Of a stretch of DNA of 52,533 nucleotides, positions 5,338 through 52,533 are shown piece by piece. The notes beneath the pieces were generated by a model. The model did no database searches. It was not told the DNA's origin and saw nothing but the letters and a program-made list of their open reading frames with translations. Made by a program: the position numbers and the translations under genes. The DNA comes from a virus (Duplodnaviria > Caudoviricetes), in the IMG/VR virus record IMGVR_UViG_3300021602_000010, positions 1 to 52,533 of that record. One strand, written 5' to 3'. The stretch's first letter is position 1, and each line of letters opens with the position of its first letter.

Positions 5338-5338
5338 G

Positions 5339-6793: not shown

Positions 6794-7743
6794 TACCAAC
6801 CTTCAATCTTTCTGATTACATCCATCTCTTTTACTAATGGACCTATGTTATACTTATCTGCATTATAATGTCTCTTAAAGAATTTACTTTGTTCAGTGTT
6901 TAATGTACACATTGGTAGTCCAAGTTTATTATTCAATGTCGTTCCCAAAAGTTCTGATTCAGTTGCAGGGTCTCTATGCTCATGTTCTTCCCAAAGAACT
7001 GTATAATTATCAAACCATTGTACGTTAGCAGGATCCCATTCAGTAAGCATAGTCATGTATGTACCAAGTCGTGCTCCATATATGGCCCATATACCATTTT
7101 CAACATCACTACCTACATTATGCCATATAGTTAAATTATTTAAGTTTCGACTTGCAACAGTTTCTTTAAATACATCCACTGTAGGTTTTGATCCACGGTC
7201 AAGAACCATTTTTACTCCTTCTCGGAATCCAGCTCGCCACGCTTGAAACGGAGTATAATTAGGATAAGTAGTAGAGTAGCAATCATGCATTGCCCAGTAT
7301 AAGTTATCTTTGCTGTCTAAACAAAAGTCAGCTATACGTGAAATATCCCCGTCAGTTTGATGCTCATGTGTTTTCATTTCACGCACATAAGTTTTTGTCC
7401 AAGAACTCATTCCACCATTGCCATAGCGTAATCCATTAATATTATTGATAGCTTTCCAACGATATTGCGCTAGTTTATAATTATCATCTTTTCCAGTGAA
7501 GTCAAGTTGGATGTTGAAGAAGGATTCTTCAGGCATGTTGTCACCGTCGATCAGAATAAAACGTTCTGTGTCACTTGCTTCACCTGCGGCTTTATGTGCG
7601 GCATCTGAACCTTTAACGTTGTCAACTCGTTTTGCCCAAGGAACCATGTTCTTTATTTTCAGCCAGAATTCTTCTTTTTGCGGTTCATCATAGCTTAGAT
7701 ATACGCAAGCTAAATCAGCCACATCAATTATATCAGAGTTCAT
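6793..7743 (-). CDS. Putative GT-A fold glycosyltransferase-like protein (SYDEP family)
   Basis: YLSYDEP, AAHKAA, FILIDGD (DxD), YGNGG and AWRAGFREGVK motifs. Confidence 0.6.
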   Translation of the reverse strand: MNSDIIDVADLACVYLSYDEPQKEEFWLKIKNMVPWAKRVDNVKGSDAAHKAAGEASDTERFILIDGDNMPEESFFNIQLDFTGKDDNYKLAQYRWKAINNINGLRYGNGGMSSWTKTYVREMKTHEHQTDGDISRIADFCLDSKDNLYWAMHDCYSTTYPNYTPFQAWRAGFREGVKMVLDRGSKPTVDVFKETVASRNLNNLTIWHNVGSDVENGIWAIYGARLGTYMTMLTEWDPANVQWFDNYTVLWEEHEHRDPATESELLGTTLNNKLGLPMCTLNTEQSKFFKRHYNADKYNIGPLVKEMDVIRKIEGW

Positions 7744-13639: not shown

Positions 13640-13647
13640 TATTTATC
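13640..13647 (-). promoter_or_regulatory. T4-type late promoter (GATAAATA)
   Basis: 5 nt upstream of ATG 13634. Confidence 0.6.
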
Positions 13648-25600: not shown

Positions 25601-28600
25601 ACCATAGGAAATGGTATCGCCCTCGTTCAATGGTTCAGTAGAGAACAGAGTCCCGTCTCGTACCACAGCAAGATCAATTGATTGAATCGGATACAGATTT
25701 TGATTCAACACAAAGTTCTGTTGTTGCAGAGTCAGCGGCTGAACAATATTACTGTCCTTGTTAATGGTCAGAAGTTTAGCAGCCGGATTGACATTGATGA
25801 TGCTGCCGGCTTCCCAACCAGTTTGTGCCCAGTATAGAAACTCGGAAACCATTTGAACCCATGTAATCTCCAGCCCATTCTCAATCTTGTCAAAGACCAT
25901 ACCCTGAGATTGGAGATATCGTCCATAACTTGCCAGGAACTGGGCAACCTCTTGGACAGAGTAAAACTCTGTGCCGTACGGTATTACCATTTCTGTGTCA
26001 TAATAGTCGTTTGCCACCTGAACACTAAGATTGTCAATCTGGACCCGTTCATAGTTTCCATTGATCTTGGGTTTAATCACTGAAAAGTATGCATTAGTTT
26101 GTGAGTTACCAAAAATCTTGTATCCACCACGTGGGATAATCTGGATGGCAACACTGCTGTAAACAACACGGTCAAACGGTTGGTTATCGTAGAGCAGCAC
26201 GGCGTAACTTTCGTCAGGGATCAGCAGTGAACTATTGTTGCTATTCGGCGTTCCCTTCTCCACATAGAACTTCAGCATGTTCTTATCACTGAACCCGGCG
26301 GCACGATAGACCAACCTGACATCAAGATTGCTCAACAGGTCAGTGATTTGTTGAGTGGCGTCAATTCCAAGTTGTTTCTCATAATCAACGATCCAGTTGA
26401 TGTAACTTGTTTTTGGTGTACCGGATCCATATATTTCAACGTCACTGATTACAAGGTGACTACGACCATTTACAAGATACTGGTTGAACTCGGTATTGTA
26501 CTTGTAGTTGTCAACATCTACACCGAGGTTAAAGAACTCTGCTGGTTTGGTCAACGCCAGAATACGCATCAGGTCAAACGGCCAAGAACTACTGCGACGA
26601 TAGCTGAACTCTGCCGGGCCAACATCACCGACTGCCCAATCGTGGATGAATGTCTGGTTGATGTAGTTACCAACTAACGAGACAAATGGAGAAACAAGAT
26701 TACCCGCGGTGTCAACTGGCAGAACCCGCAGTAACTCAGGACGTACTGCCTGAGGAATCACCACCGGGTCGCCGTTGTTCCAGTTTATACCTTGGGCAAG
26801 GTCGCCCCATAGAACCAAGTTATCACTGGTGTATGGCATCGGGCCATAGCGAGTTTCCCACCATGATGGCTGGCTGGTGAAGCCAAGCATTTCCCAAGGC
26901 GTTAACTCAGGAGAACTTGTGTCGTAAAAATACTCATATGCGCCGCGCCAAAAACCTTGCTCAATCGGGGCGTTGTTTATCTTGTTGCCGGAGTTACGGT
27001 AGTTATACGTGAACTCATCGTTGGCCATGTAGTGCTGAGTTTTGTAATCAATCCTGTTTTGACCGACCCAGTTTAGGAAACTCTCTGAGTAAATCTGTAG
27101 GATTTCCGAGTAACTATATCCGGTATCACGGAAGAATCCAGGCAAGACCTCATATTCCTGAATAGGTATGACATTGCTCAGTTTCAGGTTGTTATAGATG
27201 CGCTTCTCAAACTCCAATAGAACTTGGTCCTTGAAGTCCATAAGTCGTCCGGTAATTTCGTCATAGTCACCGTATAACTTATTGTAAGATCCGTCGTGAC
27301 CGACGATGAAGTAGGTCGGGGTAGAATATGAGGTATCCAAATAAACTGTAGGAATTGTTGCAGGATATAGTCCTAATTTTGTAGGGGTATTAGGAACATA
27401 GCTGCCATATGTTTGTGTGTATTCTTTAATTACAATCTCGTCACCAGGGGCCAGAGCAAGAGTTATTGTTAGAGACGGGGTATCAGTTGACACGGAATAA
27501 TCAGTTCCTTTAATTAGCTGAATTGTCTGTAGGAACCCGTCAATGGTCCTTTTCAAGTAGACAAGAACACCGTAGTAGTTGGCCTTGGTAAAGTCATATA
27601 TTCTGCTAAGAGGGTAGATACTTACATCAAGCGAGTTTGAAAATAGATATGTGTTTGATATATAGGATGCCTTAGCCGGAAGCATGTCACTCCAGAAGAA
27701 GGTATCGGTTCCTGACTTTACTGCCGTGATCTGATCAAACGCATCATCAAGCATTGATGCTGCTGATTGGAACACCGAGTATTCAGTATTATTAATGGTA
27801 TCAACTAATAATGTCTTGAATGTGACATACTCTCTGCTATTGAACATCAACGCATTGAATAGATTATGGTTTTGCTTACGAAGGAACGTTCCCGGAAGTA
27901 CCAGTGATGCGCTATTTTGAATAATTGAAGAACCGTAAGAAACAAGATCACCGGAGTCTCGGTAGTTGTTAGATCCGAATACTAAGCCAGTAAGTCCCGG
28001 GGCATTGTAGAAGATACTCTGATACTGTCCACGAATGTCACCGATGTTTACCACGGTAACATCTGCGTTGAATGGATTGTTACTTAGATTGATAGGAAGA
28101 GTGTAGTAGGCATTGGCACTTACTTGATCACTCAGCAGCAGAATCTGGATTACGTTGTCAATCAATGGTTCAGGGTTTATAAAAGTGACTGTGGTGACAT
28201 CTGTTACTGCGACAGTGTAGGCCGAATCTACCTGGAACACGTTGTTCAGGTATACCTGTACTGACGGCCAAGAGTTAGTACTCTGTGGTGTCATTGGAAT
28301 ATCGCACACATACGTTGTTGTTGGTGCAGTGACCGAATAAGCAAATTCAAATGCCTGGTACTGGACGCTCGGTGCAATAGCAGTCTGCCAACCTAACTGA
28401 CGAATATGGTCTGACGGAGATGAATAGTTGAAAACAAACCCGGTGTTAACCTTCTTTGTTTCAGGTGTTGTCCCCGATACATACGAGAATGAATCAAGGT
28501 TGATACTCACATCAAAACTGATATCACCAATATTATCAACTGAACTGTATCTAACAGGGAAACCTAATACGGTGTCGTTAATCCCGGAACCAATTCCATA

Positions 28601-42583: not shown

Positions 42584-43489
42584 ATGTCACTACTACCAGC
42601 CCCGAGGAAGCCAGTCAATTATCTGAACAATAGAGACATTCTGAAAGAAATACATACCAGTAAAAATACCTACTGTCATTTCACGGACCCGGAAGTCCAT
42701 CGGTACGATATGATTGTGGATATGCCCCAGGCGCCACTTGATGAAAGTTTGGCGTATGCGTTTCGTCCCGAAAGTATTCAGTTGGCCAAAGAAAATCGGG
42801 CAATCCGTCTGAGCCAGGAAGCCGGAGTCAAAGATTCGGTCAAGGCTGCTGATATCCTAACCACTGACTTAGTATTTAGGGTGATGACTTGGACCCATGT
42901 CCCAGTGGCACCAAAACAACCAAGGAAAACGGTAAAAAAGAAAACGGCCAAGGACATATTTGAGTTCGAGGAAGCCGATCCTGATGAGAAGTTTGCTGAT
43001 CTGGAAGACAACGTGACCAAAGCAGAAGTAGATGACATGGTTCATGTAAAGGTAAACTTCCCACCGTTTCAACACTATAAAATTGACCCAAATAACACAT
43101 TCTTCTGCGTTGGTAAGTCTCACTGGCAGGGTGATTTAGAAAGTGGTGTGTTCAATAAAGACCATGGGCAAGCCACTAACAAACTGGCGCGCATGTATAT
43201 TATGATGTGTGAAAAGTATGCCATGAAGTATAACTGGCGCGGATATACTTATCGTGACGAGATGCAAAACTCAGCTATCCTTCAACTCACCTATGTTGGT
43301 CTCCGATTCAACGAAGCTAAATCCGCAAACCCGTTTGCGTTCTACACCGCAGTCATCACCAACTCATTCTGTCGTGTTCTTAACACTGAAAAACGAAATC
43401 AAAATATTCGGGACGACATACTAGAAATCAACGGCCTCAACCCAAGTTGGTCTCGGTCATCAATTAGTTCAACTCACTTTGACGAGTAA
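42584..43489 (+). CDS. gp55: Late-transcription sigma factor, T4 gp55-like
   Basis: Start at ATG 42584 after AAGGA. VNYLNN.D.L and YA...NWRGYTYRDEM..SA...L......FN..KS.NPFAFYT....NSF.R.LN.EK match gp55. Lies upstream of gp47/gp46 as in T4. Confidence 0.85.
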   Translation: MSLLPAPRKPVNYLNNRDILKEIHTSKNTYCHFTDPEVHRYDMIVDMPQAPLDESLAYAFRPESIQLAKENRAIRLSQEAGVKDSVKAADILTTDLVFRVMTWTHVPVAPKQPRKTVKKKTAKDIFEFEEADPDEKFADLEDNVTKAEVDDMVHVKVNFPPFQHYKIDPNNTFFCVGKSHWQGDLESGVFNKDHGQATNKLARMYIMMCEKYAMKYNWRGYTYRDEMQNSAILQLTYVGLRFNEAKSANPFAFYTAVITNSFCRVLNTEKRNQNIRDDILEINGLNPSWSRSSISSTHFDE

Positions 43490-44060
43490 TATATTTCCAG
43501 CCGCGCGTAGTTTTATACTTGCCATTGATTAGTCTACTTGCGCTTCCCTGGTCAACATCCTGGGTGGTGACGAACTCATATTGCGTCATTTGAACCGTTA
43601 CTCCGGTTTCTATGTTGTGAAAAGTATGAATAGTAGGATCATACTTTGAGTTTTTTATGCCTTTGTTTCTACCAGTAAATGGATTTACATATCCCGGTTT
43701 AGAGATTCTATCCTTGGTATGACTTGAACCATCCGCTCGCTTTTGCCACGGATGTGTACCTTTCTCTAATCTATGTAGGTGATTCAATTTAGCGATTTCG
43801 GAAATTTGCTCTGTGGACCATTTCATTTTTGCTGCGATGCGGAGACATGCTGTCCAATCACCCTGTTTATGGTGAACATCGTAGTGATCTTGTATTGAAA
43901 TGGCTATAAGATTTTCAGGATTATTGTTATGGCTATTACCATCCTTGTGGTGGATTTCATATTTTCGTCCCGAATCTTCTCTTGGGATTGGCCCATAATA
44001 TTGCTCGTATAGTTTACGATAGTTAACTTTAGTGCGTCTTTGTTTATTATAAATAGTCAT
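43464..44060 (-). CDS. Free-standing HNH homing endonuclease
   Basis: Start at ATG 44060 after AAGGAG. YEIHHKDGNSHNNNPENLIAISIQDHYDVH HNH motif; C-terminal HTH-like tail. Inserted antisense between gp55 and gp47. Confidence 0.85.
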   Translation of the reverse strand: MTIYNKQRRTKVNYRKLYEQYYGPIPREDSGRKYEIHHKDGNSHNNNPENLIAISIQDHYDVHHKQGDWTACLRIAAKMKWSTEQISEIAKLNHLHRLEKGTHPWQKRADGSSHTKDRISKPGYVNPFTGRNKGIKNSKYDPTIHTFHNIETGVTVQMTQYEFVTTQDVDQGSASRLINGKYKTTRGWKYITRQSELN

Positions 44061-44127
44061 GCTGGTGCTCCTTTTTAGCGTTAGAGAGGGCGGAGGTCGT
44101 AACTCGTGGCTCTCACTACTATTTATC
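44050..44127 (-). promoter_or_regulatory. Late promoter (GATAAATA, 44120-44127) plus structured leader of the HNH gene
   Basis: ATAAATAGT pairs with ACTATTTAT (codons 2-4); inner GAGAG/CTCTC and GCT/AGC stems, the last covering the SD. Confidence 0.6.
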
Positions 44128-44143
44128 ATTTTGCCCAAGCATA

Positions 44144-44173
44144 TTGCTTTTGTCGCATCACCTGTAGTACAAT
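44144..44173 (+). promoter_or_regulatory. Sigma70-type promoter for gp47-gp46
   Basis: TTGCTT (44144-44149), 18-nt spacer, TACAAT (44168-44173), 5 nt before ATG 44179. Confidence 0.5.
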
Positions 44174-44178
44174 AAGAA

Positions 44179-45195
44179 ATGTCTAATCTATTCAAAAAAG
44201 CAGCGGTCCTAACGGATCTACATCTTGGTCTCAAGAGTAACAGTTTGGTTCACAACGAGGATTGCGTGAACTTCGTCACATGGTTTGTGGCTAAGGCCAA
44301 AGAAGAAAAGTGTGATACCGTTATTGTATGTGGAGACTGGCACAACCATCGTGCCAGCATCAACGTGCTGAGTTTACACTACTCCATGAAATGTCTGGAG
44401 ATGCTGAATGCCAACTTCTCTCAGGTATTTTTCATCACAGGTAACCACGATCTTTACTATCGTGAGAAACGGGACATTCATTCGGTTGCTTGGGCAGGAT
44501 ACCTACCCAATGTAACTATTGTCAATGACCCGTTTACTGAAGGCAACGTCACTCTTTGCCCATGGATGGTCGGCGAAGATCATGCCGCAATCAAGAAGAT
44601 CAAGTCCACATACACCTTTGGGCATTTTGAACTGCCCTACTTCCTGATGAATGCCCAGATTGAAATGCCCGATCATGGTCTGATCAGCCTGGATGATTTC
44701 GGGTCTACGGGCACCGTATTCAGTGGACATTTTCACAAACGACAGGCCAAGAAGAACATCTGGTACATCGGCAATGCTTTTCCGCATAACTATGCTGACG
44801 CCGGTGATGATGCCCGCGGTATGATGATACTGGCCTGGGGACAAACTCCCGAGTTCTATTCATGGCCTGGTCAACCCAAGTATCGTGTGCATAAACTGAG
44901 CGACATTCTGGAGAAGACCAAAGAGTTATTGCTGCCTGATTCGCATGTTCGTGTTCATCTAGACATTGACATTTCCTACGAGGAAGCGAACTTCATTCGG
45001 GAAACACTTATCCCTGATTATAATCTTCGGGAGATGGCACTGATTCCTATGCGAGTGGAGCAACAGGCCACTGGTGCTGAATCCGGAGAGATAAAGTTTG
45101 AATCGGTAGATCAAATAGTTTTGGATCAGATTAACTCTATTGAATCAAAGACTTACGACAAGAAAATTCTACTGGAAATCTACAACACTATATGA
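44179..45195 (+). CDS. gp47: Recombination endonuclease subunit, T4 gp47 / Mre11 / SbcD-like
   Basis: Metallophosphoesterase motifs TDLHLG, GDWH, GNHD, GHFE, SGHFH and YIGN. Confidence 0.93.
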   Translation: MSNLFKKAAVLTDLHLGLKSNSLVHNEDCVNFVTWFVAKAKEEKCDTVIVCGDWHNHRASINVLSLHYSMKCLEMLNANFSQVFFITGNHDLYYREKRDIHSVAWAGYLPNVTIVNDPFTEGNVTLCPWMVGEDHAAIKKIKSTYTFGHFELPYFLMNAQIEMPDHGLISLDDFGSTGTVFSGHFHKRQAKKNIWYIGNAFPHNYADAGDDARGMMILAWGQTPEFYSWPGQPKYRVHKLSDILEKTKELLLPDSHVRVHLDIDISYEEANFIRETLIPDYNLREMALIPMRVEQQATGAESGEIKFESVDQIVLDQINSIESKTYDKKILLEIYNTI

Positions 45196-47270
45196 TATTG
45201 CTCAAGGATATTACAATACGCAACTTTTTAAGCGTGGGGGCCTGCACTCAAGCAGTCAACTTTGACCGGACTGACCTGACACTGATTCTCGGAGAGAATC
45301 TTGATCTTGGTGGTGATGGCGCTCGTAACGGCACCGGAAAGACCTCGTTGATCCAAGGTCTTTCTTATGCCTTGTTCGGTGTGCCTATCAATAGCATCCG
45401 AAAAGACAACCTGGTCAATCGCACCAACGGCAAGAACATGCTGGTCACCCTGACTTTCAGTGTTGATGGAGTGGAGTACAAGATTGAGCGAGGACGCAAG
45501 CCTAATCTGTTGAAGTTCTACGTGAACAACACGCTACAGAAGCAACAGGATGATGCCCAAGGAGAGAACAAAGAAACTCAAGCAGCCATTGAGCGAGTAA
45601 TCAACATGTCAGCAGACATGTTCAAGCACATCGTGGCACTGAATACCTACTCTGAACCGTTTCTTGCTCTGAAGAATAGTGATCAACGAGCAATCATTGA
45701 GCAACTACTTGGCATTACCATTCTGAGCGAGAAGGCCGAGAATGTAAAGGAACTGCTTACCACCAGTAAAGATGCCATACGAACCGAAGAGTTCCGTATT
45801 AAGGCAGTTGAAGAGGCTAACAAGCGTATCCTTGAACAGATTGAAGGGCTGAAACGCCGTCAACGACTATGGACAACTAAGAAAGATTCAGACCTTGCCG
45901 CCTATGTGGAATCGTATGATACTCTGTCCAAAATAGATATCGTGGCAGAACTACAAGCGCACAAAGACCTCGTGGTCTACAACAAGAACAAAGAAGTAAA
46001 CCAGAACTACATGTCGTTGACTGCCCGCTCTACCGCATGGTTTGATAAGAATAAACGAGAAGGCGTGGAGTTGCAGAAGGCGTACGACAAAAAGAACTCC
46101 ATTGATATCGTCAAGGAACTACAAAAGCACCGACAGGTCGCCGAGTACAACCAACGAGTCAAGGATAAGGCAACACAAGACGCTGATATCAAGCGGGCAA
46201 CCGGTGATTGTGTCAGGCATGATAAGGAAATCAAAAAACTTGAAGCCGAAATCGCTCAACTTCACGAACACAAGTGTTATGCCTGTGGGCAGGAGTTACA
46301 TGACGAGCAACACACCGTTGTCCTTGATGCGAAAGAAGAGGCGTTAGTTCTGGCAATAAGCAGCCACAACACTTCTCTTGACCTCCTCATTCATCTAAGA
46401 GAAAATAAGATTTCTCTTGGTAAGATGCCATCAACCCTATACAAGACAGAAGAAGAAGCGTTCAAACACTCCAGCGAACTGGAAAGCATCCGTCATAAGA
46501 TCACAGACAAAGAAAACGAAGCTGATCCGTATGCCGAGCAAGCCAATGAACTGCTCAATAGTGTGACCACCTTATCCAAGCCACCAGTTACCGTTTATGA
46601 CACCGAAGCGGAAGCGGTGACGCATAGTTCAACTATGGCCAATCTACTGACACAAATGGAAAGCAAAAGCGAAGAGGTTGATCCGTATGAGGAACAAATC
46701 GTTGATATGGAGCAGAAGGCTCTACAGGTAACGAACTTTGACATGATCAACTCACTGACAAAGACCATGGATCATCAGAAGTTCCTGTTGGAACTGCTCA
46801 CCAGCAAGGATTCGTTTGTTCGTAAGAAGATCATTGATCAAAATCTGGCATTTTTGAATGCCAGGTTGACTCACTATCTTGATAAGATCGGTCTGCCACA
46901 TCAGGTTGTCTTCCAAAACGACCTGAACGTGGAGATTACTGAGTTAGGGCGTGAACTTGACTTTGATAACCTGTCCCGTGGTGAGCGCAACAGGCTGATT
47001 CTTGGTTTGTCGTTTGCTTTCCGTGATGTTTGGGAAAACCTATACAAGCCGGTCAATACCCTGTTCATTGACGAGTTGATTGACTCCGGTCTTGATACCA
47101 TGGGCGTAGAAAACGCCATTGCCATTCTCAAGGACATGAGCCGTCGTCGTCAGAAATCTATTTGGCTTGTCTCTCACAGAGAAGAACTTGCAGGGCGAGT
47201 ACCGAGTGTTCTGAAGGTGGTTAAGACTGGGGGATTCACTGAATATTCCACAGCGACAGACACGGAGTAG
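45192..47270 (+). CDS. gp46: Recombination ATPase subunit, T4 gp46 / Rad50 / SbcC-like
   Basis: NFLSVG, Walker A GARNGTGKTS, coiled coils, Zn hook CYAC, signature LSRGE, Walker B LFIDELIDSGLD, and SH switch. Confidence 0.93.
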   Translation: MILLKDITIRNFLSVGACTQAVNFDRTDLTLILGENLDLGGDGARNGTGKTSLIQGLSYALFGVPINSIRKDNLVNRTNGKNMLVTLTFSVDGVEYKIERGRKPNLLKFYVNNTLQKQQDDAQGENKETQAAIERVINMSADMFKHIVALNTYSEPFLALKNSDQRAIIEQLLGITILSEKAENVKELLTTSKDAIRTEEFRIKAVEEANKRILEQIEGLKRRQRLWTTKKDSDLAAYVESYDTLSKIDIVAELQAHKDLVVYNKNKEVNQNYMSLTARSTAWFDKNKREGVELQKAYDKKNSIDIVKELQKHRQVAEYNQRVKDKATQDADIKRATGDCVRHDKEIKKLEAEIAQLHEHKCYACGQELHDEQHTVVLDAKEEALVLAISSHNTSLDLLIHLRENKISLGKMPSTLYKTEEEAFKHSSELESIRHKITDKENEADPYAEQANELLNSVTTLSKPPVTVYDTEAEAVTHSSTMANLLTQMESKSEEVDPYEEQIVDMEQKALQVTNFDMINSLTKTMDHQKFLLELLTSKDSFVRKKIIDQNLAFLNARLTHYLDKIGLPHQVVFQNDLNVEITELGRELDFDNLSRGERNRLILGLSFAFRDVWENLYKPVNTLFIDELIDSGLDTMGVENAIAILKDMSRRRQKSIWLVSHREELAGRVPSVLKVVKTGGFTEYSTATDTE

Positions 47271-47296
47271 TTGAAATATGGATTCACTTGTTATGG

Positions 47297-47304
47297 TATA
47301 AATA
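47297..47304 (+). promoter_or_regulatory. T4 late promoter, perfect TATAAATA
   Basis: 5 nt upstream of ATG 47310. Confidence 0.7.
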
Positions 47305-47309
47305 GTTAT

Positions 47310-47984
47310 ATGAATAACTATTATGTTTATATGTATACTAGATCCGTTGATTCTCCTACCGCTAAAGCAGGGACACCATATTATATCGGAAAGGGCAGAG
47401 GGAGGAGGCGGTTTGAAAAGCACTCTGTTACCATCCCAAATGATGAGCATAATGTAATAGTGTTTGAAAACTTACTTGAGATGGGAGCATTTATCATTGA
47501 GAGAACTCTCATCAGGTGGTATGGACGTAAGGACTTAACTTACACGGACAGACCACCTGGTATTCTACGAAATATGACTGATGGTGGTGACGGTGGGAGC
47601 GGCAGAAAAGATTCCGACGATACGAAACAGCGTCGAGGTAAGTCAAATACTGGAAAACGACGAACGATTGAGTCAAAGAATAAAATATCGGCGGCAGTTA
47701 AGGCGGCACGGATAAGATTGGGTAACTGGTGGATTGATAAAAAGCACTCGGATGACACGAAGCAGATAATGTCTGCCAAGAAGAAAGGCAAGTCTTACGA
47801 GGAAATTTTTGGACCGCGCGCGGCAGAAATGCGAGAGAGAAGAAGGATAGAATCATCTGGGATACCCAAGGGGCCGCAATGTCAGGTCATATGCCCGCAT
47901 TGCGGCAAGGTGGGCGGGACCGGCATTATGAAACGCTGGCACGGCGATAGGTGTAAGTACAATACTTCTACGGAGATGGACTAA
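47310..47984 (+). CDS. GIY-YIG homing endonuclease with NUMOD3-like repeats and C-terminal Zn ribbon
   Basis: Start moved to ATG 47310. YYVYMY...PYYIGKG.G.R...E..LI..YGR...L.N.TDGGDG; [10 protein letters not shown] repeats; CPHCGK.....MKRWH...C. Confidence 0.85.
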
Positions 47985-47986
47985 TG

Positions 47987-47994
47987 GCTAAATA
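47987..47994 (+). promoter_or_regulatory. T4-type late promoter (GCTAAATA)
   Basis: 6 nt upstream of ATG 48001. Confidence 0.55.
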
Positions 47995-48000
47995 TCTCAC

Positions 48001-48444
48001 ATGGATACAGGTCATTGGGAGTTCCCACACGTTTTTGAAATTGACGACTGGTTCGGTTTTCTTTACCGAATTACAGAGATAAGCACCGGCATGGAATACG
48101 TCGGCAAGAAGCAACTGCATCAGCATCTAAGAAAAACAGTCAAGGGCAGAAAAAATAAGAAGAAGGTGATCAAGGAGTCTGATTGGAAAACCTATATGGG
48201 TTCTTCAGTCAGACTCAACACCTCGATTGCCACTAATGGCAAAGACAACTATCGCTTTGAGATAATTTCCCTGCATAAGACACGCGCATCGCTCGTTTAT
48301 GCGGAAGTAAAACTTCAAATTATGGAAGATGTTCTACGAACAAAACTACCTAACGGCACACGGAAAAGTTACAACGGCCTTATCTCAGGCATCAAGTTTC
48401 TTCCTCCAGAGGAAACGGCCGAAGAGGCAAAAATGAAAAGATAG
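48001..48444 (+). CDS. Short GIY-YIG (Seg-like) nuclease, catalytic domain only
   Basis: GFLYRIT...TG..YVGKK...ESDWKTYMGSS...EII......L.YAE...YN. The protein ends right after the catalytic domain and has a basic insert RKTVKGRKNKKKVIK. Confidence 0.75.
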   Translation: MDTGHWEFPHVFEIDDWFGFLYRITEISTGMEYVGKKQLHQHLRKTVKGRKNKKKVIKESDWKTYMGSSVRLNTSIATNGKDNYRFEIISLHKTRASLVYAEVKLQIMEDVLRTKLPNGTRKSYNGLISGIKFLPPEETAEEAKMKR

Positions 48445-48488
48445 TTACCCAAATACAGTATAATTTTCGTACGGAACGTGTTATACTT

Positions 48489-48496
48489 GCTAAATA
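48489..48496 (+). promoter_or_regulatory. T4-type late promoter (GCTAAATA) upstream of a non-coding structured region
   Basis: Same octamer as 47987; no credible + strand ORF follows. Confidence 0.5.
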
Positions 48497-48499
48497 AAC

Positions 48500-49055
48500 A
48501 GACACCAGGTCAAATCAAATTCCCCGTCACTAGCCTGACACCAAACACTGGCACAAAGCCTTAGCCTAATTCGTCTAGTCGGGACGCCCGACTCTCCTTG
48601 AGGTTGTACAGATTGTGCTGTGCCGTCAGATACTGGAGTATAGCCTTGGTATTGCGCTAATAATACCAGGGGAATACCGACAGGGCTCTCACCATGGTAG
48701 AAATGTGAACCCTGAATGAGTCTGTGCCTACTTTGTCGTGATGGTACAGAACATGCGTTGCTGGGAGGTATGGTGAAGTTTAAGCCATATTGTCCCAACT
48801 ACAGATCCATAACAACTTTACAGAGCAACCGGTAGCAGATAGTAGTAGACGCCTAATTATCTGGGATAGAGACAACAGAGGGGATAGGGTGAAACTTTCC
48901 ATTTGGTAGTGCTAATTTAGCACTACCATGGCTCCAAGGTGAAGTGGATATCCGATAAGCAAATAGAGAAAAGAAAAGAGTAGAATAAAAAAGAATTAGA
49001 GTGATACCGAGCGAAGCGAAGGGATCAGATGTGCGTAGCACATCTCTAAAGAGAG
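48500..49055 (+). ncRNA. Candidate large structured non-coding RNA (family unassigned); alternatively a replication origin region
   Basis: About 550 nt with at least 8 stem-loops, several containing G-U pairs that only form on the + strand. Boundaries are approximate. Confidence 0.5.
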
Positions 49056-49090
49056 CAAAATATAAATGACAAATAATGGAATGGAATACC

Positions 49091-49114
49091 AAAAGAAAAG
49101 ACACCGAAGTGTCT
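49091..49114 (-). terminator. Rho-independent terminator
   Basis: Minus strand AGACAC-TTCG-GTGTCT followed by TTTCTTTT; C(UUCG)G tetraloop immediately at the TAG of the upstream ORF. Confidence 0.8.
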
Positions 49115-49289
49115 AAAAGAATGGTAGTTTGCTTTCTTTCGTGGTCTTGAGGTTATCAGATATGATCTGATTTATTTGGTTTCGTTCCTCCATAGACATG
49201 TTCAACACATCCTCATAGGATACTCCACCCCGCATGTACCAAGAGCAAGTAAGAGCATTTTTCTTAATTGCAGTACACTCATCTTCCAT
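49113..49289 (-). CDS. Small hub/tail-assembly chaperone ORF (58 aa), probably the -1 frameshift extension of 49337..50164
   Basis: Not in the ORF track: MEDECTAIKKNALTCSWYMRGGVSYEDVLNMSMEERNQINQIISDNLKTTKESKLPFF*. Its frame is open back to the slippery site at 49349. Confidence 0.75.
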   Translation of the reverse strand: MEDECTAIKKNALTCSWYMRGGVSYEDVLNMSMEERNQINQIISDNLKTTKESKLPFF

Positions 49290-49336
49290 ATCATCTAATA
49301 GCTTCTGTACACCTTCGGGGTCAAGGTGCAGAAGCC

Positions 49337-50164
49337 TTACCCGAAAAAATCAGCGGCGTTTATTGAGAACGGCTGTGAGTATTCGTGACCGCAACTGATA
49401 CATTTCACCGGAAGTGGTTTTACCTCAGACTTAGTTTTAAGACTGGTATTGTGTGATCTGATTGCTTCAAACATATTCTTGTCACAGTTCTTCAGGAAGT
49501 CAAGAATGAAGTCCTTCTGATCTACGAATGAACTGGGAGTTTTGATATATTCAATGGTCTTAGATAGCAGATTCATTGTGACATCAGTGATAGTTTTCAG
49601 AGCCTCACGCTGCTTAGTTGTCTTTTCAGTGAGATTTTCCAGCGTGTCAATTGCTGCAAACATCTTCTGTAGTTCAAACTGACCAAGACCCACTTCAGTC
49701 ATTTCCTTGTAGGTCAGCGGACGTAGTTTAATCAGCAGATCATTCACAGCAAGTTCAGTGTCATAATCACCCGATTTGATTGAGGTTAATAGTCCTACAA
49801 GATTCACACCATATGTAGATGCTTCTTGGCAAGCCGGGCATGTCGTTTCAATTTCCATGTCATTGCCACCTGAGGCTGACTTGATTGCCAACAGCACAGT
49901 GTCAAGATCAACGCTGGATAGTCTCCACGGATCCTTGATATTCGGTACACAACTTGTGATAATTTCAACGATGGCACTGCCGTTGAATAACGCATCAGGC
50001 GTATTTACTGTGATTTCGTCAATGGCAGTCATCGGGAAGACCGGTAGTTCCCCTGCCTCTGGCACATCAATGACTCCTTCGGGATAATTTTTATACCCGC
50101 TTGGTAGTTTGATATAAATTGATGGGCGGCGAAAATATTGTCTTAGCGGATTGTTTTCAATCAT
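49337..50164 (-). CDS. gp26: Baseplate hub/tail assembly chaperone, T4 gp26/gp51-like
   Basis: NPLRQYFRRP.IYI.LPS, PMTA.DEI....PDAL.NG, D.D..LLAI..AS, two CxxC pairs (CPAC, CISC), C-terminal DFFG; adjacent to the tape-measure-like gene. Confidence 0.7.
   Translation of the reverse strand: MIENNPLRQYFRRPSIYIKLPSGYKNYPEGVIDVPEAGELPVFPMTAIDEITVNTPDALFNGSAIVEIITSCVPNIKDPWRLSSVDLDTVLLAIKSASGGNDMEIETTCPACQEASTYGVNLVGLLTSIKSGDYDTELAVNDLLIKLRPLTYKEMTEVGLGQFELQKMFAAIDTLENLTEKTTKQREALKTITDVTMNLLSKTIEYIKTPSSFVDQKDFILDFLKNCDKNMFEAIRSHNTSLKTKSEVKPLPVKCISCGHEYSQPFSINAADFFG
49343..49349 (-). promoter_or_regulatory. Putative -1 ribosomal frameshift slippery heptamer T TTT TTC
   Basis: GAT TTT TTC GGG TAA gives an in-frame X XXY YYZ one codon before the stop; the -1 frame stays open for 76 further codons. 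Confidence 0.7.
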
Positions 50165-50190
50165 TTTTGTTCCTTGGGTAAACAGTGATG

Positions 50191-50198
50191 TATTTAGT
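50191..50198 (-). promoter_or_regulatory. T4-type late promoter (ACTAAATA) for the gp26-like gene
   Basis: Upstream of the AAGGA SD and ATG 50164; divergent from the 50237 promoter. Confidence 0.6.
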
Positions 50199-50236
50199 GT
50201 ATGAAAAATAGGGTAAATTTAATGGTATTGTAAATG

Positions 50237-50244
50237 AATAAATA
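50237..50244 (+). promoter_or_regulatory. T4-type late promoter (AATAAATA) for the tape-measure-like gene
   Basis: 17 nt upstream of ATG 50262. Confidence 0.55.
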
Positions 50245-50261
50245 CATGAAAGAGCCCAAAT

Positions 50262-52533
50262 ATGTCAACACCTGAAGAAGTACAAGAACAAATACTGGCA
50301 TCCATACAGAGTATGGCTGATGCCATGTCAAACATCGTTCCTGCATTGACATCTATGGGAACACAAATTCAGCGACAAGCTGACATTACAAAAACCCAAT
50401 ACGATGAAGAAGTTATACGATTAGCGGACCTAAAAAAACAAGCAGACGAACGGAAAACGTTAGAGGGTGATCGACTCAAAGAAGAGGCTCTCAAAAACGG
50501 TCGGATAAAGGCATCGAGTGTAGAAGAGGCTCAGCGTAACAGGGAGCTAAGAAAACAATTCACGAATAGATTAGGGATTGAAGAGGAAATTAATCCTAGA
50601 TTAAAGGCGGTTCTTGACAACCGATCCACCATTGAACAAAAATTAGTTGACGCTGCCAAACGTCAATATGGTGATGACGTTTTTATCTCTGCACAACGAA
50701 ATAAGTTATACAGAGAACAAATAGCACAGTATAGCGCTGGGAATTTGGCATATGGCGGAGTTGTAACTCAGTTTAAAGACCTCAGCAAGGATCAGCAGAA
50801 AGCAATAGTAGACGCTGCCAAAACACAGAAAAAGTTAAAAGAAGAACAAGAAAAGTTCACACAAACTGTTCAAACGTTGGCAAACCCCGGTGAAACATTT
50901 AAAGGCATCACTGGCAAAGTTACATCATTATCAAGCGCATTAGAGTCTGGAAAAGATGGATTAATTAAAATGGCCGGCGGAGGGGTCGGGGCACAAATAG
51001 CATTTGAATCTATAGCAGTCGCCGGGAAGGCACTCGTTGCTTCCTTTATGTCAATGTCAACTGCTCTTTATGCTGGTCAGCGCGGAGCGGCAGTGGGAGT
51101 TAACGCAATGGCTGCTGCTGTAGGCAAGGTTACTCCACTTATGTATGGACTAGCCGGGGCACTATTTATTATGGGTGGTCCGATCCTTAAGATTCTAGGG
51201 GTTGCTGCCCTCGCTGCCACCGCCGCACTTGACCTGTATACTGAATCACAAAAAAAGGGAGCCGAACAGAACGATGCTCTATTCAAATCGTATAATGATC
51301 TGGCTCAAGCCGGTCTTGCCACAGCCGATGGATTAACCGGCTTGTTTGATATGACCCAAAAGTTGGGTCTAACTGTTAAGGAAATTGAAAAACTAGGTCC
51401 ATTACTAAAGGAACATGCCAAAGATTTAGCATTGATGGGAGGAACTGCATCTGAAGGTGCTAAGGCATTCGCTAATGTTGCTACGGAGCTGAAGAGGGCT
51501 GATATAGGAGAACGATTAGAAAGATTAGGTATAACTTCAGACCAACAACGGGAGCATACACTAAGTTACATGGCACAGCAAACAAGAATGGGGACATTAC
51601 TTAATAAGTCCCAAGCTGACCAAATTGCCGGTGCGAAAAATTATATGGAAGAACTGGATAAGATGGCGGCACTTACCGGAGCATCCAGAAAGGAACAAGA
51701 AGAAGCAAGAGAGGCCATGTTAGCGATTGATGCTGCTCGGGCAGGGTTAGATGAAGTTGCAGAACAAGCAAAGGCTGGTGTACCGGGTGCAGAGAAGCGA
51801 TTACAAGAAATGCAAGCTGGTATAAAACTTGCTTCACTGCTCCAAACACAAGGGTTAAACGTATTGGCTAAAGGACAGGCCCAGCTTTCTGGATCTGAAG
51901 GAACTCCGACTACTGCTGAATCAACTGCTGCATTTCAAAGTTTAAGTGGCAGTCACCGTGCGATTAAAGAAGGAAAGGGTGATGCTGAGATAGCGTTAGC
52001 TGCTGGTGTCTCAATGGAACAGGCGTCTAAGTTAATGCGGACTAACGCAAAGTATAACGGGGAAACTAGTGCGTTTCTTGGTGACACGTATGCAAAGGGA
52101 AGAGATTTTCAAATAAAAATGTCTAAGGCAGCGGAGTTGATGAAAAAAACTCCAGGGATGGACATTGACGCAGCACTAAAGCAAACCCAACTTGCAAAAG
52201 AAAACACCCCGGAACCACAATTAGCTGCAAACGTGAGTGCAGGGAGAACGCAACAGGCTGCAGCCATGCTTCAGGACAGTGCAATTAAACACTTTGACCA
52301 ATCAGCAATAATAAACAAAGCGGCCAGTGAGATGTTTGAATCAGCAGTTGTGTCCTTCAATAACACTGTTGGCGCAAAACTTCCGGTTGGTGGTACTCCG
52401 CAAGTAGGAACAAACCCAGGAAAGAAAGAAAACTCAACACCGGCTGCAACACCGATAGCATCAACTACTCCTGCTGTGTCACCAAAACCAACACCGGCTG
52501 CAACACCGATAGCATCAACTACTCCTGCTGTGT
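50262..52533 (+). CDS. Tape measure-like protein, 3' end outside window
   Basis: Not in the ORF track because it has no stop in the window. MSTPEEVQEQILASIQSMADAM..., helical Ala/Lys/Glu/Gln-rich sequence, hydrophobic Gly/Ala segment near 51100-51230, Y..ELDKMAALTGASRKEQ motif; next to the chaperone gene. Confidence 0.75.
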   Translation, partial: MSTPEEVQEQILASIQSMADAMSNIVPALTSMGTQIQRQADITKTQYDEEVIRLADLKKQADERKTLEGDRLKEEALKNGRIKASSVEEAQRNRELRKQFTNRLGIEEEINPRLKAVLDNRSTIEQKLVDAAKRQYGDDVFISAQRNKLYREQIAQYSAGNLAYGGVVTQFKDLSKDQQKAIVDAAKTQKKLKEEQEKFTQTVQTLANPGETFKGITGKVTSLSSALESGKDGLIKMAGGGVGAQIAFESIAVAGKALVASFMSMSTALYAGQRGAAVGVNAMAAAVGKVTPLMYGLAGALFIMGGPILKILGVAALAATAALDLYTESQKKGAEQNDALFKSYNDLAQAGLATADGLTGLFDMTQKLGLTVKEIEKLGPLLKEHAKDLALMGGTASEGAKAFANVATELKRADIGERLERLGITSDQQREHTLSYMAQQTRMGTLLNKSQADQIAGAKNYMEELDKMAALTGASRKEQEEAREAMLAIDAARAGLDEVAEQAKAGVPGAEKRLQEMQAGIKLASLLQTQGLNVLAKGQAQLSGSEGTPTTAESTAAFQSLSGSHRAIKEGKGDAEIALAAGVSMEQASKLMRTNAKYNGETSAFLGDTYAKGRDFQIKMSKAAELMKKTPGMDIDAALKQTQLAKENTPEPQLAANVSAGRTQQAAAMLQDSAIKHFDQSAIINKAASEMFESAVVSFNNTVGAKLPVGGTPQVGTNPGKKENSTPAATPIASTTPAVSPKPTPAATPIASTTPAV
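52435..52533 (+). repeat. 54-bp tandem repeat (18 aa TPAATPIASTTPAVSPKP), truncated by window end
   Basis: caacaccggctgcaacaccgatagcatcaactactcctgctgtgt occurs identically at 52435 and 52489. Confidence 0.9.

What the first reader, a model, noticed from the sequence alone, without database searches (positions are those of the whole stretch)
48001..49055. Candidate ~550-nt structured ncRNA directly downstream of a catalytic-domain-only GIY-YIG nuclease
Seen: this is the only long non-coding stretch in a densely coding window, and it starts after a GCTAAATA late promoter identical to the one before the nuclease gene. It is packed with stems: AGTCGGG/CCCGACT (48577-48593), GTACAG/CTGTGC (48606-48623), CCTTGGTATTG/TAATACCAGGG (48644-48671), CAGGG..TCAC/GTGA..CCCTG (48681-48714), TCTGTGCC/GGTACAGA (48721-48750), TGGGA..TATGG/CCATA..TCCCA (48762-48797) enclosed by GTTGCT/AGCAAC, CAGATAGT/ATTATCTG (48836-48863), and CCAT..GGTAGTGCTAA/TTAGCACTACC.ATGG (48899-48931). 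At least four stems need G-U pairs that would be A-C mismatches on the other strand, as expected for a + strand RNA. The upstream 147-aa GIY-YIG protein lacks the NUMOD/Zn/HTH DNA-binding tail of the other three endonucleases here and instead has a very basic insert. Inference: protein and RNA may form a ribonucleoprotein in which the RNA supplies scaffold or targeting, by analogy to HEARO/OMEGA nuclease-RNA pairs. I could not match the RNA by eye to tmRNA, RNase P or an intron.
Basis: partly seen in the sequence, partly recalled or inferred. Interest (0 to 1): 0.85.

Follow-up and report, generated by a model that had tools for sequence, protein, structure and literature searches.

The report
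Large structured RNA in jumbo phages
A roughly 480-base, intricately folded non-coding RNA gene shared by a whole lineage of freshwater giant phages is real and matches nothing in the RNA family database, but it is not tied to the small nuclease gene that happens to sit beside it here.

Summary
The non-coding stretch is a genuine structured RNA gene. They recur in at least 120 non-redundant copies from related IMG/VR phage contigs, with heavy compensatory change. By domain: core 97.4% paired, 25 of 34 pairs with double changes; 5' domain 21 of 25; 3' domain 10 of 26. I also found two pseudoknots. G-U pairs outnumber A-C mismatches 366 to 48, which fits a + strand RNA. Rfam 15, ARAGORN and blastn against cultured phages gave no match.

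The proposed RNA-nuclease particle is not supported. In 114 of 116 copies with enough flank, the upstream gene is a PDDEXK_15 resolvase-like nuclease. A GIY-YIG gene sits there in only 2, plus this window. The 147-aa protein is 66% identical to the N-terminal domain of a 360-aa homing endonuclease that has disrupted the resolvase gene in a relative.

The best reading is a new, vertically inherited, large pseudoknotted phage ncRNA of unknown function. A second, unrelated-looking RNA family occupies the same locus in a sister clade.

The parts
48563..49045 (+). Whole conserved RNA element, about 480 nt: 5' domain, core junction, 3' domain, variable A-rich linker and 3' module
   Evidence: Covariance-model hits R2 48563-48687, R1 48674-48837 and R3 48825-48949. 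3' module located. The ends are inferred, not mapped.
48563..48575 (+). Conserved A/T-rich box just upstream of H1 (family consensus UAAMAAUUYG; window AGCCTAATTCGTC). It could be a promoter -10-like element or a 5' leader.
   Evidence: Column frequencies over 95 distinct sequences. Function not tested.
48577..48593 (+). H1 hairpin (AGTCGGG/CCCGACT)
   Evidence: All 7 pairs show changes on both sides among 95 distinct sequences. 90 distinct hairpin sequences fold here.
48594..48638 (+). H2/H3 irregular hairpin: CUCC/GGAG clamp, conserved internal loop (UUGA / GGAUNCU), closing pair 48602-48627, and H3 GTACAG/CTGTGC
   Evidence: H2 100% paired with one compensatory C-G to U-A; the closing pair is GC 67, AU 17, GU 11; H3 has 5 of 6 pairs with double changes.
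48644..48671 (+). H4 variable-length hairpin (CCTTGGTATTG/TAATACCAGGG)
   Evidence: 7 of 7 modelled pairs have double changes and 98.1% of cells are paired.
48675..48834 (+). Core multi-helix junction. Ha 48675-79/48830-34. Hb 48681-85/48710-14 plus 48689-91/48706-08. Hc 48716-18/48752-54 plus 48721-28/48743-50. Hd 48757-62/48824-29. He 48762-66/48793-97.
   Evidence: Model R1. 90 distinct sequences, 97.4% of cells paired, 25 of 34 pairs with double changes; slid controls 29-40% paired.
48733..48738 (+). Pseudoknot PK1, 5' strand, in the loop of Hc
   Evidence: Mutual information, then pair counts: 6 consecutive pairs, 93-97 of 98 sequences canonical, 3 pairs clearly covary. Confirmed on the unfitted MAFFT alignment A1. 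The window keeps 5 of the 6 pairs.
48870..48875 (+). Pseudoknot PK1, 3' strand (AGACAA)
48805..48808 (+). Pseudoknot PK2, 5' strand (AUCC here, UCCC in the consensus), in the junction strand between He and Hd
   Evidence: Pair types UA 68, AU 9, CG 7, GC 6 at the variable pair. The window itself carries compensatory AU/UA changes. Also.
48864..48867 (+). Pseudoknot PK2, 3' strand (GGAU here, GGGA in the consensus)
48836..48863 (+). H10 hairpin (CAGATAGT.../...ATTATCTG)
   Evidence: 8 of 10 pairs with double changes and about 99% paired.
48900..48931 (+). H11 long hairpin with almost invariant sequence (GGTAGTGCT...AGCACTACC), with a CCATGG palindrome at its base
   Evidence: Inner 9 pairs: 5 never vary, and only the top pair covaries (UA 77, AU 14, CG 4). 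The outer 4 pairs are broken in 5-25 of 95 sequences. Sequence-level constraint; RNA pairing is not proven by covariation.
48932..48949 (+). Conserved tail after H11 (consensus CUUCAAAGCGGCAAU; divergent in the window)
   Evidence: Alignments A1 and A6. Its N of NCGGCAA tracks the base at the 5' arm of the Hx hairpin.
49003..49045 (+). 3' module: GA-rich hairpin (49003-49026) directly followed by the hairpin AGATGTGC-GTA-GCACATCT (49027-49045)
   Evidence: Seen by eye in all 39 distinct tails printed, with covarying stems and GAA/GUA/GUAA/GAAA loops. It is shared with the sister RNA family. A profile built from the sister family hits 13 of 111 tails at E<0.01, all on the + strand.
48001..48444 (+). 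147-aa GIY-YIG catalytic-domain-only gene (SegE_GIY-YIG; phrog_447). Read here as derived from a homing endonuclease, not as an RNA partner.
   Evidence: 66% identical to residues 1-147 of the 360-aa endonuclease in L004.
47271..47984 (+). 237-aa GIY-YIG-type homing endonuclease with NUMOD3 repeats. This is a second mobile endonuclease in the same hot spot.
49099..49114 (-). Terminator-like hairpin plus T-run just after orf58 on the minus strand. It lies outside the RNA and suggests the baseplate transcript stops before reaching it.
   Evidence: Consensus scan. Not evidence of function.
49113..49289 (-). orf58, a conserved 58-aa gene convergent with the RNA, probably gp51-like (baseplate hub module)
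   Evidence: Present downstream of the RNA in 114 of 115 copies with flank, with gp26 first in the remaining copy. Atlas feature hit to a Gp51_C cluster at 0.91, a lead only.

Best explanation
Window ~48563-49045 (+ strand) is a stand-alone gene for a ~480-nt non-coding RNA with several domains and two pseudoknots. It is a vertically inherited core feature of a lineage of uncultured freshwater T4-like jumbo phages. It always lies between the recombination-nuclease module (gp47, gp46, a small nuclease gene) and the convergently transcribed baseplate-hub module (gp51-like orf58, gp26-like).

Shown: conservation, secondary structure, two pseudoknots, strand preference, fixed synteny, and independence from the GIY-YIG gene.

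Inferred: the RNA is made either from the A/T-rich box just upstream of H1 or by read-through from the nuclease gene. It ends at the 3' two-hairpin module. It then acts in trans through its fold, as a ribozyme-like RNA or as a scaffold that binds protein or RNA. The many invariant unpaired nucleotides and the sequence-invariant H11 hairpin would be its functional surface.

The 147-aa GIY-YIG gene is a remnant or short form of a free-standing homing endonuclease. In this sub-lineage it replaced the usual PDDEXK_15 resolvase-like gene. Endonuclease genes pile up here because the site is flanked by two highly conserved sequences, gp46 and the RNA gene.
For: Conservation: single-sequence nhmmer finds the element in 58 of 80 loci collected through the neighbouring gp26-like gene, at 66-74% DNA identity where gp26 proteins are 46-63% identical.

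Structure: RNAalifold gives 57 pairs, 34 of them compensatory. Covariance-model alignments of 100 copies give: core 97.4% paired with 25 of 34 pairs doubly changed; 5' domain 94.6% with 21 of 25; 3' domain 95.9% with 10 of 26. Slid controls are 23-47% paired.

Pseudoknots: found by mutual information outside the modelled structure and confirmed on an unfitted MAFFT alignment, 94.8% paired with 6 of 10 pairs doubly changed.

Strand: 366 G-U against 48 A-C cells. The 3' module has GNRA-type loops on the + strand only.

Synteny and independence: upstream gene is PDDEXK_15 in 114 of 116, GIY-YIG in 2 of 116; the orf58/gp26 module is downstream in 115 of 115.

Origin of the GIY-YIG gene.

No coding potential is conserved.

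No match in Rfam 15 at gathering or at E<=10, on the window and on 5 relatives. ARAGORN finds nothing. Cultured phages give nothing. The H11 pattern gives only one hit in 185,579 prokaryote species genomes, inside an ORF and without an R1 match, so a chance hit.

Weak hint of expression: contigs from two metatranscriptome runs of one study cover 48748-49226.
Against: No strand-specific transcript, 5' end or 3' end has been shown. The metatranscriptome evidence consists of assembled contigs that may contain DNA, are unstranded, and run on into orf58.

Function is entirely inferred.

The RNA starts 0-70 nt after the upstream nuclease's stop codon in nearly all copies. It could therefore be a co-transcribed 3' UTR rather than an independent gene.

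H11, the most conserved part, shows almost no covariation, so a DNA-level role for that palindrome is not excluded.

Both RNA families are always next to some small nuclease gene lacking a DNA-binding domain. A looser nuclease-RNA link therefore cannot be fully dismissed.

All contigs are fragments: the window record is about 15% complete. The absence of a PDDEXK_15 gene from the three GIY-type records does not show that those genomes lack it.
Confidence: 0.7

Rival explanations
1. Cis-acting 3' UTR. The structured region is co-transcribed with the upstream small nuclease gene and works in cis. It might stabilise the mRNA, control it, or act as a terminator or insulator between the convergent recombination and baseplate transcription units. 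It would not be a separate trans-acting RNA.
For: The RNA begins 0-70 nt after the nuclease stop codon in nearly all copies and is on the same strand. It sits exactly where two convergent units meet, and the 3' module ends in a stem followed by a short U-rich run.
Against: About 400 nt of multi-domain fold with two pseudoknots and dozens of invariant unpaired bases is far more than known terminators or stabilisers need. The RNA is kept unchanged when the upstream gene is swapped for an unrelated nuclease. A conserved A/T-rich box lies directly before H1.
Confidence: 0.15
2. First reader's model. The 147-aa GIY-YIG protein and the RNA form a ribonucleoprotein in which the RNA supplies the scaffold or the targeting, like IscB/TnpB with their omega RNAs.
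For: The protein lacks any DNA-binding tail. In the sister clade a short GIY-YIG gene sits directly upstream of the other large structured RNA in 45 of 48 loci with flank. Small nucleases without DNA-binding domains always flank these RNAs.
Against: Only 2 of 116 copies of this RNA, plus the window, have a GIY-YIG gene upstream; 114 have PDDEXK_15. All four nuclease/RNA combinations occur: 114, 2, 45 and 3. This argues against a co-evolving specific pair. The protein is 66% identical to the catalytic domain of a 360-aa endonuclease with its own NUMOD-like repeats and zinc finger, which disrupted the resolvase gene in L004. Short SegE-like proteins are a widespread phage family of their own, phrog_447 with a profile length of 148. 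There is no Rfam HEARO hit. No guide-like segment that is both hypervariable and unstructured was seen: the variable parts are hairpins and an A-rich linker.
Confidence: 0.04
3. The RNA is a highly diverged member of a known class (group I or II intron remnant, RNase P RNA, tmRNA, ROOL/GOLLD-like), too far from the Rfam models to score.
For: The size (about 400-480 nt), the pseudoknots and the phage context resemble several of these classes. Homing endonuclease genes cluster beside it, as they do beside introns.
Against: No Rfam family reaches E<=10 consistently on the window or on five relatives. ARAGORN finds no tmRNA or tRNA. The element interrupts no gene: it lies between the 3' ends of convergent genes. 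From my recollection of their architectures, not from a computed comparison, the order of helices and pseudoknots does not match P3-P7 of group I introns or P4 of RNase P.
Confidence: 0.04
4. The conservation reflects a DNA-level element rather than an RNA: a replication origin, a packaging site, a protein-binding palindrome or a homing-endonuclease target.
For: H11 is a nearly perfect, sequence-invariant DNA palindrome containing CCATGG. The site is a hot spot for endonuclease insertion.
Against: DNA sites do not produce 60 or more compensatory base-pair positions, long-range helices, pseudoknots and a 366:48 excess of G-U over A-C.
Confidence: 0.03

Closest known systems
GOLLD and ROOL RNAs (large 'ornate' ncRNAs often carried by phages and prophages; Rfam families; cryo-EM in PMC12286853, of which I saw only the search listing and the start of the abstract)
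   Same: Hundreds of nucleotides long, multi-domain, pseudoknotted, strongly covarying, encoded by phages, no known function, first seen in environmental sequence.
   Different: No sequence or structure match to either Rfam model. This RNA is shorter, about 400-480 nt. It has a fixed position between recombination and baseplate genes of T4-like jumbo phages rather than next to tRNA clusters; that usual tRNA context is recalled, not tested. Oligomerisation is untested.
HEARO / omega RNAs of IscB and TnpB (OMEGA systems)
   Same: A structured RNA of a few hundred nucleotides lying directly beside a small nuclease gene.
   Different: The nuclease here is GIY-YIG or PDDEXK, not RuvC/HNH. RNA and nuclease do not co-vary in occurrence: 114, 2, 45 and 3 for the four combinations. 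No HEARO match. No transposon ends or guide segment were identified.
Free-standing Seg-type GIY-YIG homing endonucleases of T4-like phages. SegB in the T4 tRNA gene cluster is recalled from the literature and was not checked here.
   Same: GIY-YIG genes inserted sporadically between conserved genes, next to a conserved structured-RNA gene. The window's 147-aa protein matches Pfam SegE_GIY-YIG and the N-terminus of a full-length 360-aa endonuclease at the same site.
   Different: The window's copy has no DNA-binding region and ends at the domain boundary, as do L003 and L145. Whether it is active, and what it cuts, is unknown.
PA5oct ncRNA001-004 (jumbo phage ncRNAs found by RNA-seq; PMC7318152, passages and Table 1 read)
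   Same: Unannotated non-coding transcripts of 236-619 nt in a distantly related jumbo phage (gp46 43% identical).
   Different: None of the four lies in the syntenic gp46 to baseplate-hub interval, about 74.4-77.9 kb. Models R1-R3 and nhmmer find nothing in that interval.

Membership tests
HEARO / OMEGA nuclease-guide RNA pairs | The RNA matches the HEARO covariance model (Rfam) | tested here: not met
   No hit at the gathering threshold or at E<=10.
HEARO / OMEGA nuclease-guide RNA pairs | RNA and nuclease gene co-occur as a unit | tested here: not met
   GIY-YIG is upstream of this RNA in 2 of 116 copies and PDDEXK_15 in 114. The pattern is reversed, 45 against 3 of 48, for the sister RNA.
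HEARO / OMEGA nuclease-guide RNA pairs | A variable guide segment next to a conserved scaffold, matching a DNA target | tested here: inconclusive
   By eye, the variable parts are hairpins H4 and He and an A-rich linker. No target search was done.
Known Rfam RNA classes (group I/II intron, RNase P, tmRNA, ROOL, GOLLD, OLE, 6S, and others) | Score against the curated covariance model | tested here: not met
   0 gathering hits over the whole window. In E<=10 mode only unrelated chance hits, a different one in each sequence.
tmRNA / tRNA-like | tRNA-like acceptor and T arm, and a tag reading frame | tested here: not met
   ARAGORN finds 0 genes in the window.
Self-splicing intron | Interrupts a host gene whose exons flank it | tested here: not met
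   The element lies between the 3' ends of convergent genes in 115 of 115 copies with downstream flank.
Seg-type free-standing GIY-YIG homing endonuclease (for the 147-aa gene) | GIY-YIG catalytic domain | tested here: met
   Pfam SegE_GIY-YIG, E 3.8e-33, full profile coverage.
Seg-type free-standing GIY-YIG homing endonuclease (for the 147-aa gene) | C-terminal DNA-binding region (NUMOD, HTH or zinc finger) | tested here: not met
   The protein ends 19 residues after the catalytic domain. The 360-aa homologue in L004 carries such a tail.
Seg-type free-standing GIY-YIG homing endonuclease (for the 147-aa gene) | Sporadic presence at an intergenic site between conserved genes | tested here: met
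   Directly upstream of the RNA in 2 of 116 copies, and further upstream of it in L004 and L118. Other endonuclease-sized ORFs of 336-373 aa lie in the same gap in several loci.
Large ornate phage-borne ncRNAs (a descriptive kind, not a homologous family) | More than about 400 nt, multi-domain, pseudoknotted, covariation-supported, phage-encoded, no coding potential | tested here: met
Large ornate phage-borne ncRNAs (a descriptive kind, not a homologous family) | Stable, abundant transcript in infected cells | not testable with these tools
   Only unstranded metatranscriptome contigs over 48748-49226 are available.

The most novel reading that the evidence does not exclude
This is a new class of large, doubly pseudoknotted phage RNA with an intrinsic activity: catalysis, or self-assembly into an RNA-only or RNA-protein machine. 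The invariant H11 hairpin with its CCAUGG palindrome would be the active or contact surface. It would be essential to a whole lineage of freshwater jumbo phages. A second, structurally different RNA at the same locus in the sister clade shares the same 3' module and would perform the same job, making this a case of replacement between non-homologous RNAs.
Probability: 0.3. Interest if true: 0.85.

Novelty: new variant of a known kind. Interest (0 to 1): 0.62.

Why it matters
Large structured non-coding RNAs are rare. Almost every class that has been understood (ribosome, RNase P, introns, riboswitches, guide RNAs) turned out to do something fundamental. This one is as conserved as the structural genes around it in hundreds of uncultured jumbo phage contigs. 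It has a complex fold with two pseudoknots and many invariant unpaired bases, and it matches nothing in Rfam 15 or in cultured phages. A sister RNA at the same locus suggests an RNA-based function that these phages cannot do without.

The result also corrects an attractive but unsupported idea of an RNA-guided GIY-YIG nuclease. In its place it documents an endonuclease insertion hot spot beside a conserved RNA gene, and an apparent swap between PDDEXK and GIY-YIG small nucleases.

Tried and rejected
Searches of known families led nowhere: Rfam gathering on the window; Rfam at E<=10 on 48300-49300 and on five relatives; ARAGORN.

Searches of cultured phages led nowhere: blastn with the window RNA, a more typical relative and the H11 region gave either nothing or E of about 5.

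The syntenic intervals of Atu_ph07 and PA5oct hold only small hypothetical ORFs. They gave no nhmmer or covariance-model hit. PA5oct's four published ncRNAs lie elsewhere.

The H11 pattern in 185,579 prokaryote species genomes gave one hit, inside a 385-aa ORF of a MAG contig, with no R1 match. I treat it as chance.

The 'GCTAAATA promoter' is rejected as evidence: 5 found against 3.76 expected.

The sigma-70 and terminator scan of 47200-50400 was at shuffle level. It gave only the minus-strand hairpin after orf58.

Metatranscriptome contigs left parts uncovered: 48532-48725 was not covered in any of the 4 runs laid, and runs X21 and X22 laid nothing. This is no evidence of absence.

PF24608 was not found in the three GIY-type records, which are 3-21% complete. 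A positive control on two other records worked. Absence from fragments proves nothing.

I considered orf58 as an RNA partner and rejected it. It looks like a gp51-type baseplate gene (atlas lead only).

Literature: three full-text searches for a described phage RNA of this kind found nothing matching. A fourth search found the PA5oct paper. Fremin et al. 2023 (PMC10690425, passages read) predicted 8,495 short candidate motifs from IMG/VR intergenic regions.

I did not use structure prediction, complex prediction, the search for homologous proteins or the search of protein representatives. No protein-protein binding claim is made.
Full report
Setting. The window is a 52.5-kb fragment of an uncultured virus record, about 15% complete. 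It has T4-like and jumbo-phage genes. The gp46-like Rad50-type nuclease (45192-47270) is at most 43% identical to cultured jumbo phages such as PA5oct. Around the finding the order is as follows:
- gp47-like phosphoesterase, 44179-45195
- gp46
- a 237-aa GIY-YIG/NUMOD3 endonuclease, 47271-47984
- the 147-aa GIY-YIG protein, 48001-48444
- 668 nt without a conserved ORF, 48445-49112
- on the other strand, a 58-aa ORF (49113-49289), a gp26-like baseplate hub gene (49337-50164), and then a gp29-like gene

Observation check. The stretch is the longest in the window without a conserved ORF. Its two minus-strand ORFs are not conserved in relatives. Folding the single sequence gives only a modest signal: z = -2.30 on the + strand and -1.46 on the - strand. 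The real evidence is therefore comparative.

The 147-aa protein is a complete SegE-type GIY-YIG catalytic domain and nothing else. Its basic stretch belongs to that family's profile and is not an insert. The 'GCTAAATA late promoter' is not supported: GCTAAATR occurs 5 times against 3.76 expected, and the conserved element begins about 75 nt further on.

Comparative evidence. Using the neighbouring gp26-like protein I collected 80 related IMG/VR loci. The non-coding region is conserved at the DNA level, 66-74% identity over about 350 nt, in loci whose gp26 proteins are only about 46-63% identical. nhmmer with the window sequence alone finds it in 58 of the 80. The misses are contigs that end too early, plus a more distant clade. 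After removing duplicates there are 120 full-length copies besides the window's.

Structure. RNAalifold on a MAFFT alignment of 41 sequences predicts 57 pairs, 34 of them with compensatory changes, including long-range helices. I built three covariance models: R2 for the 5' domain, R1 for the core, R3 for the 3' domain. I aligned 100 copies to each.
- Core (window 48674-48837): 97.4% of cells form pairs, and 25 of 34 pairs change on both sides. When the 3' partners are slid by 1-3 columns, only 29-40% pair.
- 5' domain (48563-48687): 94.6% paired, 21 of 25 pairs doubly changed.
- 3' domain (48825-48949): 95.9% paired, 10 of 26 doubly changed. The shortfall comes from the long hairpin H11, whose sequence hardly varies at all.

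These alignments are fitted to the models, which favours the structure. The slid controls and the unfitted RNAalifold result point the same way.

Pseudoknots. A mutual-information scan across the joined alignments recovered the known pairs. It also found two sets of pairs outside the models.
- PK1 is six consecutive pairs between the loop of helix Hc and the strand after H10. It is canonical in 93-97 of 98 sequences, with UA/CG and AU/GC alternation.
- PK2 is four pairs between the junction strand UCCC and GGGA.

Both hold on the original MAFFT alignment, which was fitted to nothing: 94.8% paired, 6 of 10 pairs doubly changed, slid controls 34-63%. The window's own copy keeps PK2 through two compensatory changes, AUCC with GGAU, and keeps 5 of the 6 PK1 pairs.

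The overall architecture is a hairpin (H1), a kinked long hairpin (H2/H3) and a variable hairpin (H4). These are followed by a closed multi-helix junction (Ha-He), H10, a strand that threads back to form PK2 and PK1, a small GGCA-loop hairpin (Hx), and the invariant H11.

Strand and ends. Over all modelled pairs, G-U cells number 366 and A-C cells 48, which fits a + strand RNA.

About 55-80 variable, A-rich nucleotides after H11 comes a two-hairpin 3' module (window 49003-49045). Its stems covary and its loops are GAA, GUA, GUAA or GAAA on the + strand. Beyond it, on the minus strand, a terminator-like hairpin follows orf58.

Directly before H1 there is a conserved A/T-rich box with consensus UAAMAAUUYG. 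It may be a promoter element or a leader, and I could not decide which.

Contigs from two metatranscriptome runs of one study cover 48748-49226. These are unstranded assemblies that may include DNA, so this is only a weak hint of expression.

Relation to the GIY-YIG gene. Among the 120 copies, 116 have enough upstream sequence. In 114 of those the gene immediately upstream, on the same strand, is a protein of about 188 aa. It belongs to Pfam PDDEXK_15 (E 5.5e-27) and phrog_244, labelled 'RusA-like Holliday junction resolvase'. In only two copies is it a homologue of the 147-aa GIY-YIG protein: L003, a 97% identical relative of the window, and L145. The orf58/gp26 module is downstream in all 115 copies with flank.

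In L004 a 360-aa endonuclease sits between gp46 and a PDDEXK gene that has lost its first 68 or so codons. The endonuclease's first 147 residues are 66% identical to the window's protein. It continues into NUMOD-like repeats and a C-terminal zinc finger.

The simplest history is this. A Seg-type homing endonuclease invaded the site. In the window's sub-lineage its DNA-binding half and the resolvase remnant were then lost. Alternatively, the short form is a member of the widespread stand-alone family phrog_447. Other loci carry different endonuclease-sized ORFs in the same gap, and the window itself has a second one. The site is therefore an insertion hot spot flanked by two very conserved sequences. 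From memory, the T4 SegB endonuclease in the tRNA cluster is a precedent for such genes lying beside RNA genes. I did not check this.

A sister RNA. The distant clade that lacks this RNA has, at the same position, another conserved non-coding region of about 480-520 nt. A 21-base invariant from it finds 67 IMG/VR contigs. RNAalifold on 28 copies gives 83 pairs, 45 of them compensatory. My three models do not detect it, but it ends in the same two-hairpin 3' module. In this clade the upstream gene is a short GIY-YIG in 45 of 48 loci with flank and PDDEXK_15 in 3. All four nuclease/RNA combinations therefore exist. This speaks against a specific co-evolving RNA-protein pair and for a swap between two small nucleases at one locus. 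One caveat remains: some small nuclease without a DNA-binding domain is always next door, so a looser functional link is not excluded.

Identity. There is no Rfam 15 match on the window or on relatives, no tRNA or tmRNA, and nothing in 50,697 cultured-phage records. The prokaryote species genomes gave only a chance hit. The syntenic regions of Atu_ph07 and PA5oct gave nothing, and PA5oct's four published ncRNAs lie elsewhere (passages and Table 1 of PMC7318152 read). Three full-text searches found no description of it. A large IMG/VR motif screen (PMC10690425, passages read) may list fragments of it in supplements I could not open.

Mechanism. Shown: a conserved, intricately folded element with + strand pairing signatures, fixed in synteny and independent of the GIY-YIG gene. 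Inferred: it is transcribed as, or processed to, an RNA of about 480 nt that acts through its fold. The density of invariant unpaired nucleotides, two pseudoknots that clamp a multi-helix junction, and a sequence-invariant hairpin are what one sees in ribozymes and in RNAs that dock onto proteins or other RNAs. I favour such a trans-acting role (overall confidence 0.7 for the combined statement). The rivals, with my confidence in each, are:
- a cis-acting 3' UTR or insulator, 0.15
- the GIY-YIG ribonucleoprotein, 0.04
- a diverged member of a known class, 0.04
- a DNA-level element, 0.03

Verdict. The ribonucleoprotein interpretation is not supported. Function is unknown, no cultured host-phage pair carries it, and expression has not been shown. 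Those limits keep the score moderate to high rather than high.

Noticed in passing
L077:6065-7206 (minus strand of the locus), and likewise L073, L081, L082, L204-L270: A second large structured RNA family of about 480-520 nt, with the invariant GGGGTACCGGCTGACCGCCTC. It sits at the same locus (gp46, nuclease, RNA, orf58, gp26) in a sister clade. It occurs in 67 IMG/VR contigs. RNAalifold predicts 83 pairs, 45 of them compensatory. Models of the first RNA do not detect it, but it shares the 3' two-hairpin module.
   Followed up: partly
Loci; window 48001-48444: PDDEXK_15 resolvase-like genes and short GIY-YIG genes look interchangeable at one position: 114 against 2 beside the first RNA, and 3 against 45 beside the sister RNA. 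The short GIY-YIG may have taken over the resolvase's role, or it may simply have displaced it.
   Followed up: partly
L004:1073-3193 (gap between orf58 and gp46): A 360-aa full-length SegE-like homing endonuclease has inserted into the PDDEXK_15 gene and truncated it. Only residues matching 69-184 of the resolvase remain. This looks like an intermediate state of the replacement seen in the window.
   Followed up: yes
Window ~48886-48899 and 48932-48949; alignment A7 columns 77 and 151: The base in the 5' arm of the small GGCA-loop hairpin (Hx) and the first base of the tail motif NCGGCAA are identical in nearly every sequence (GG 67, UU 15, CC 10). This suggests that two strands compete for one partner, as in a switch, or that there is a triple interaction. 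It is unexplained.
   Followed up: no
Window 48900-48931: H11 is nearly invariant in sequence across at least 95 distinct copies and carries the self-complementary CCAUGG at its base. The Hx 5' arm contains a similar CAUGG. This could be an intermolecular or alternative pairing site, or a protein-binding site.
   Followed up: no
Window 13646-31069 (-): A single open reading frame of 5,807 aa.
   Followed up: no
Window 565-1770, 3904-5403, 5339-6799 (-): Three ORFs with radical-SAM domains lie clustered near one end of the window, together with a DUF6071 gene at 1771-2499. Two of the three radical-SAM matches fall below Pfam's cut-off.
   Followed up: no
Window 43464-44234 (-): An HNH_3 endonuclease gene lies between the baseplate genes and gp47, overlapping neighbouring ORFs. 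This is a third mobile-type endonuclease within 5 kb.
   Followed up: no
Window 48967, 10 bases: Both metatranscriptome contigs and the close relative L003 lack about 10 bases of the A-rich linker (AAAGAAAAG repeat). This is length variation in the only unstructured part of the RNA.
   Followed up: no
Window 49113-49289 (-): orf58 is conserved in both clades. By language-model features it resembles clusters annotated Gp51_C (score 0.91, a lead only). It is probably a baseplate hub assembly gene rather than an RNA partner.
   Followed up: partly
Window 48445-48562; L145 upstream of its RNA: The GIY-YIG cassette brings its own 3' flank of about 100-120 nt, containing AAACAGACACCARGTCA. This occurs once in the window and twice as a direct repeat in L145. 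The flank is absent from copies that have PDDEXK upstream.
   Followed up: no
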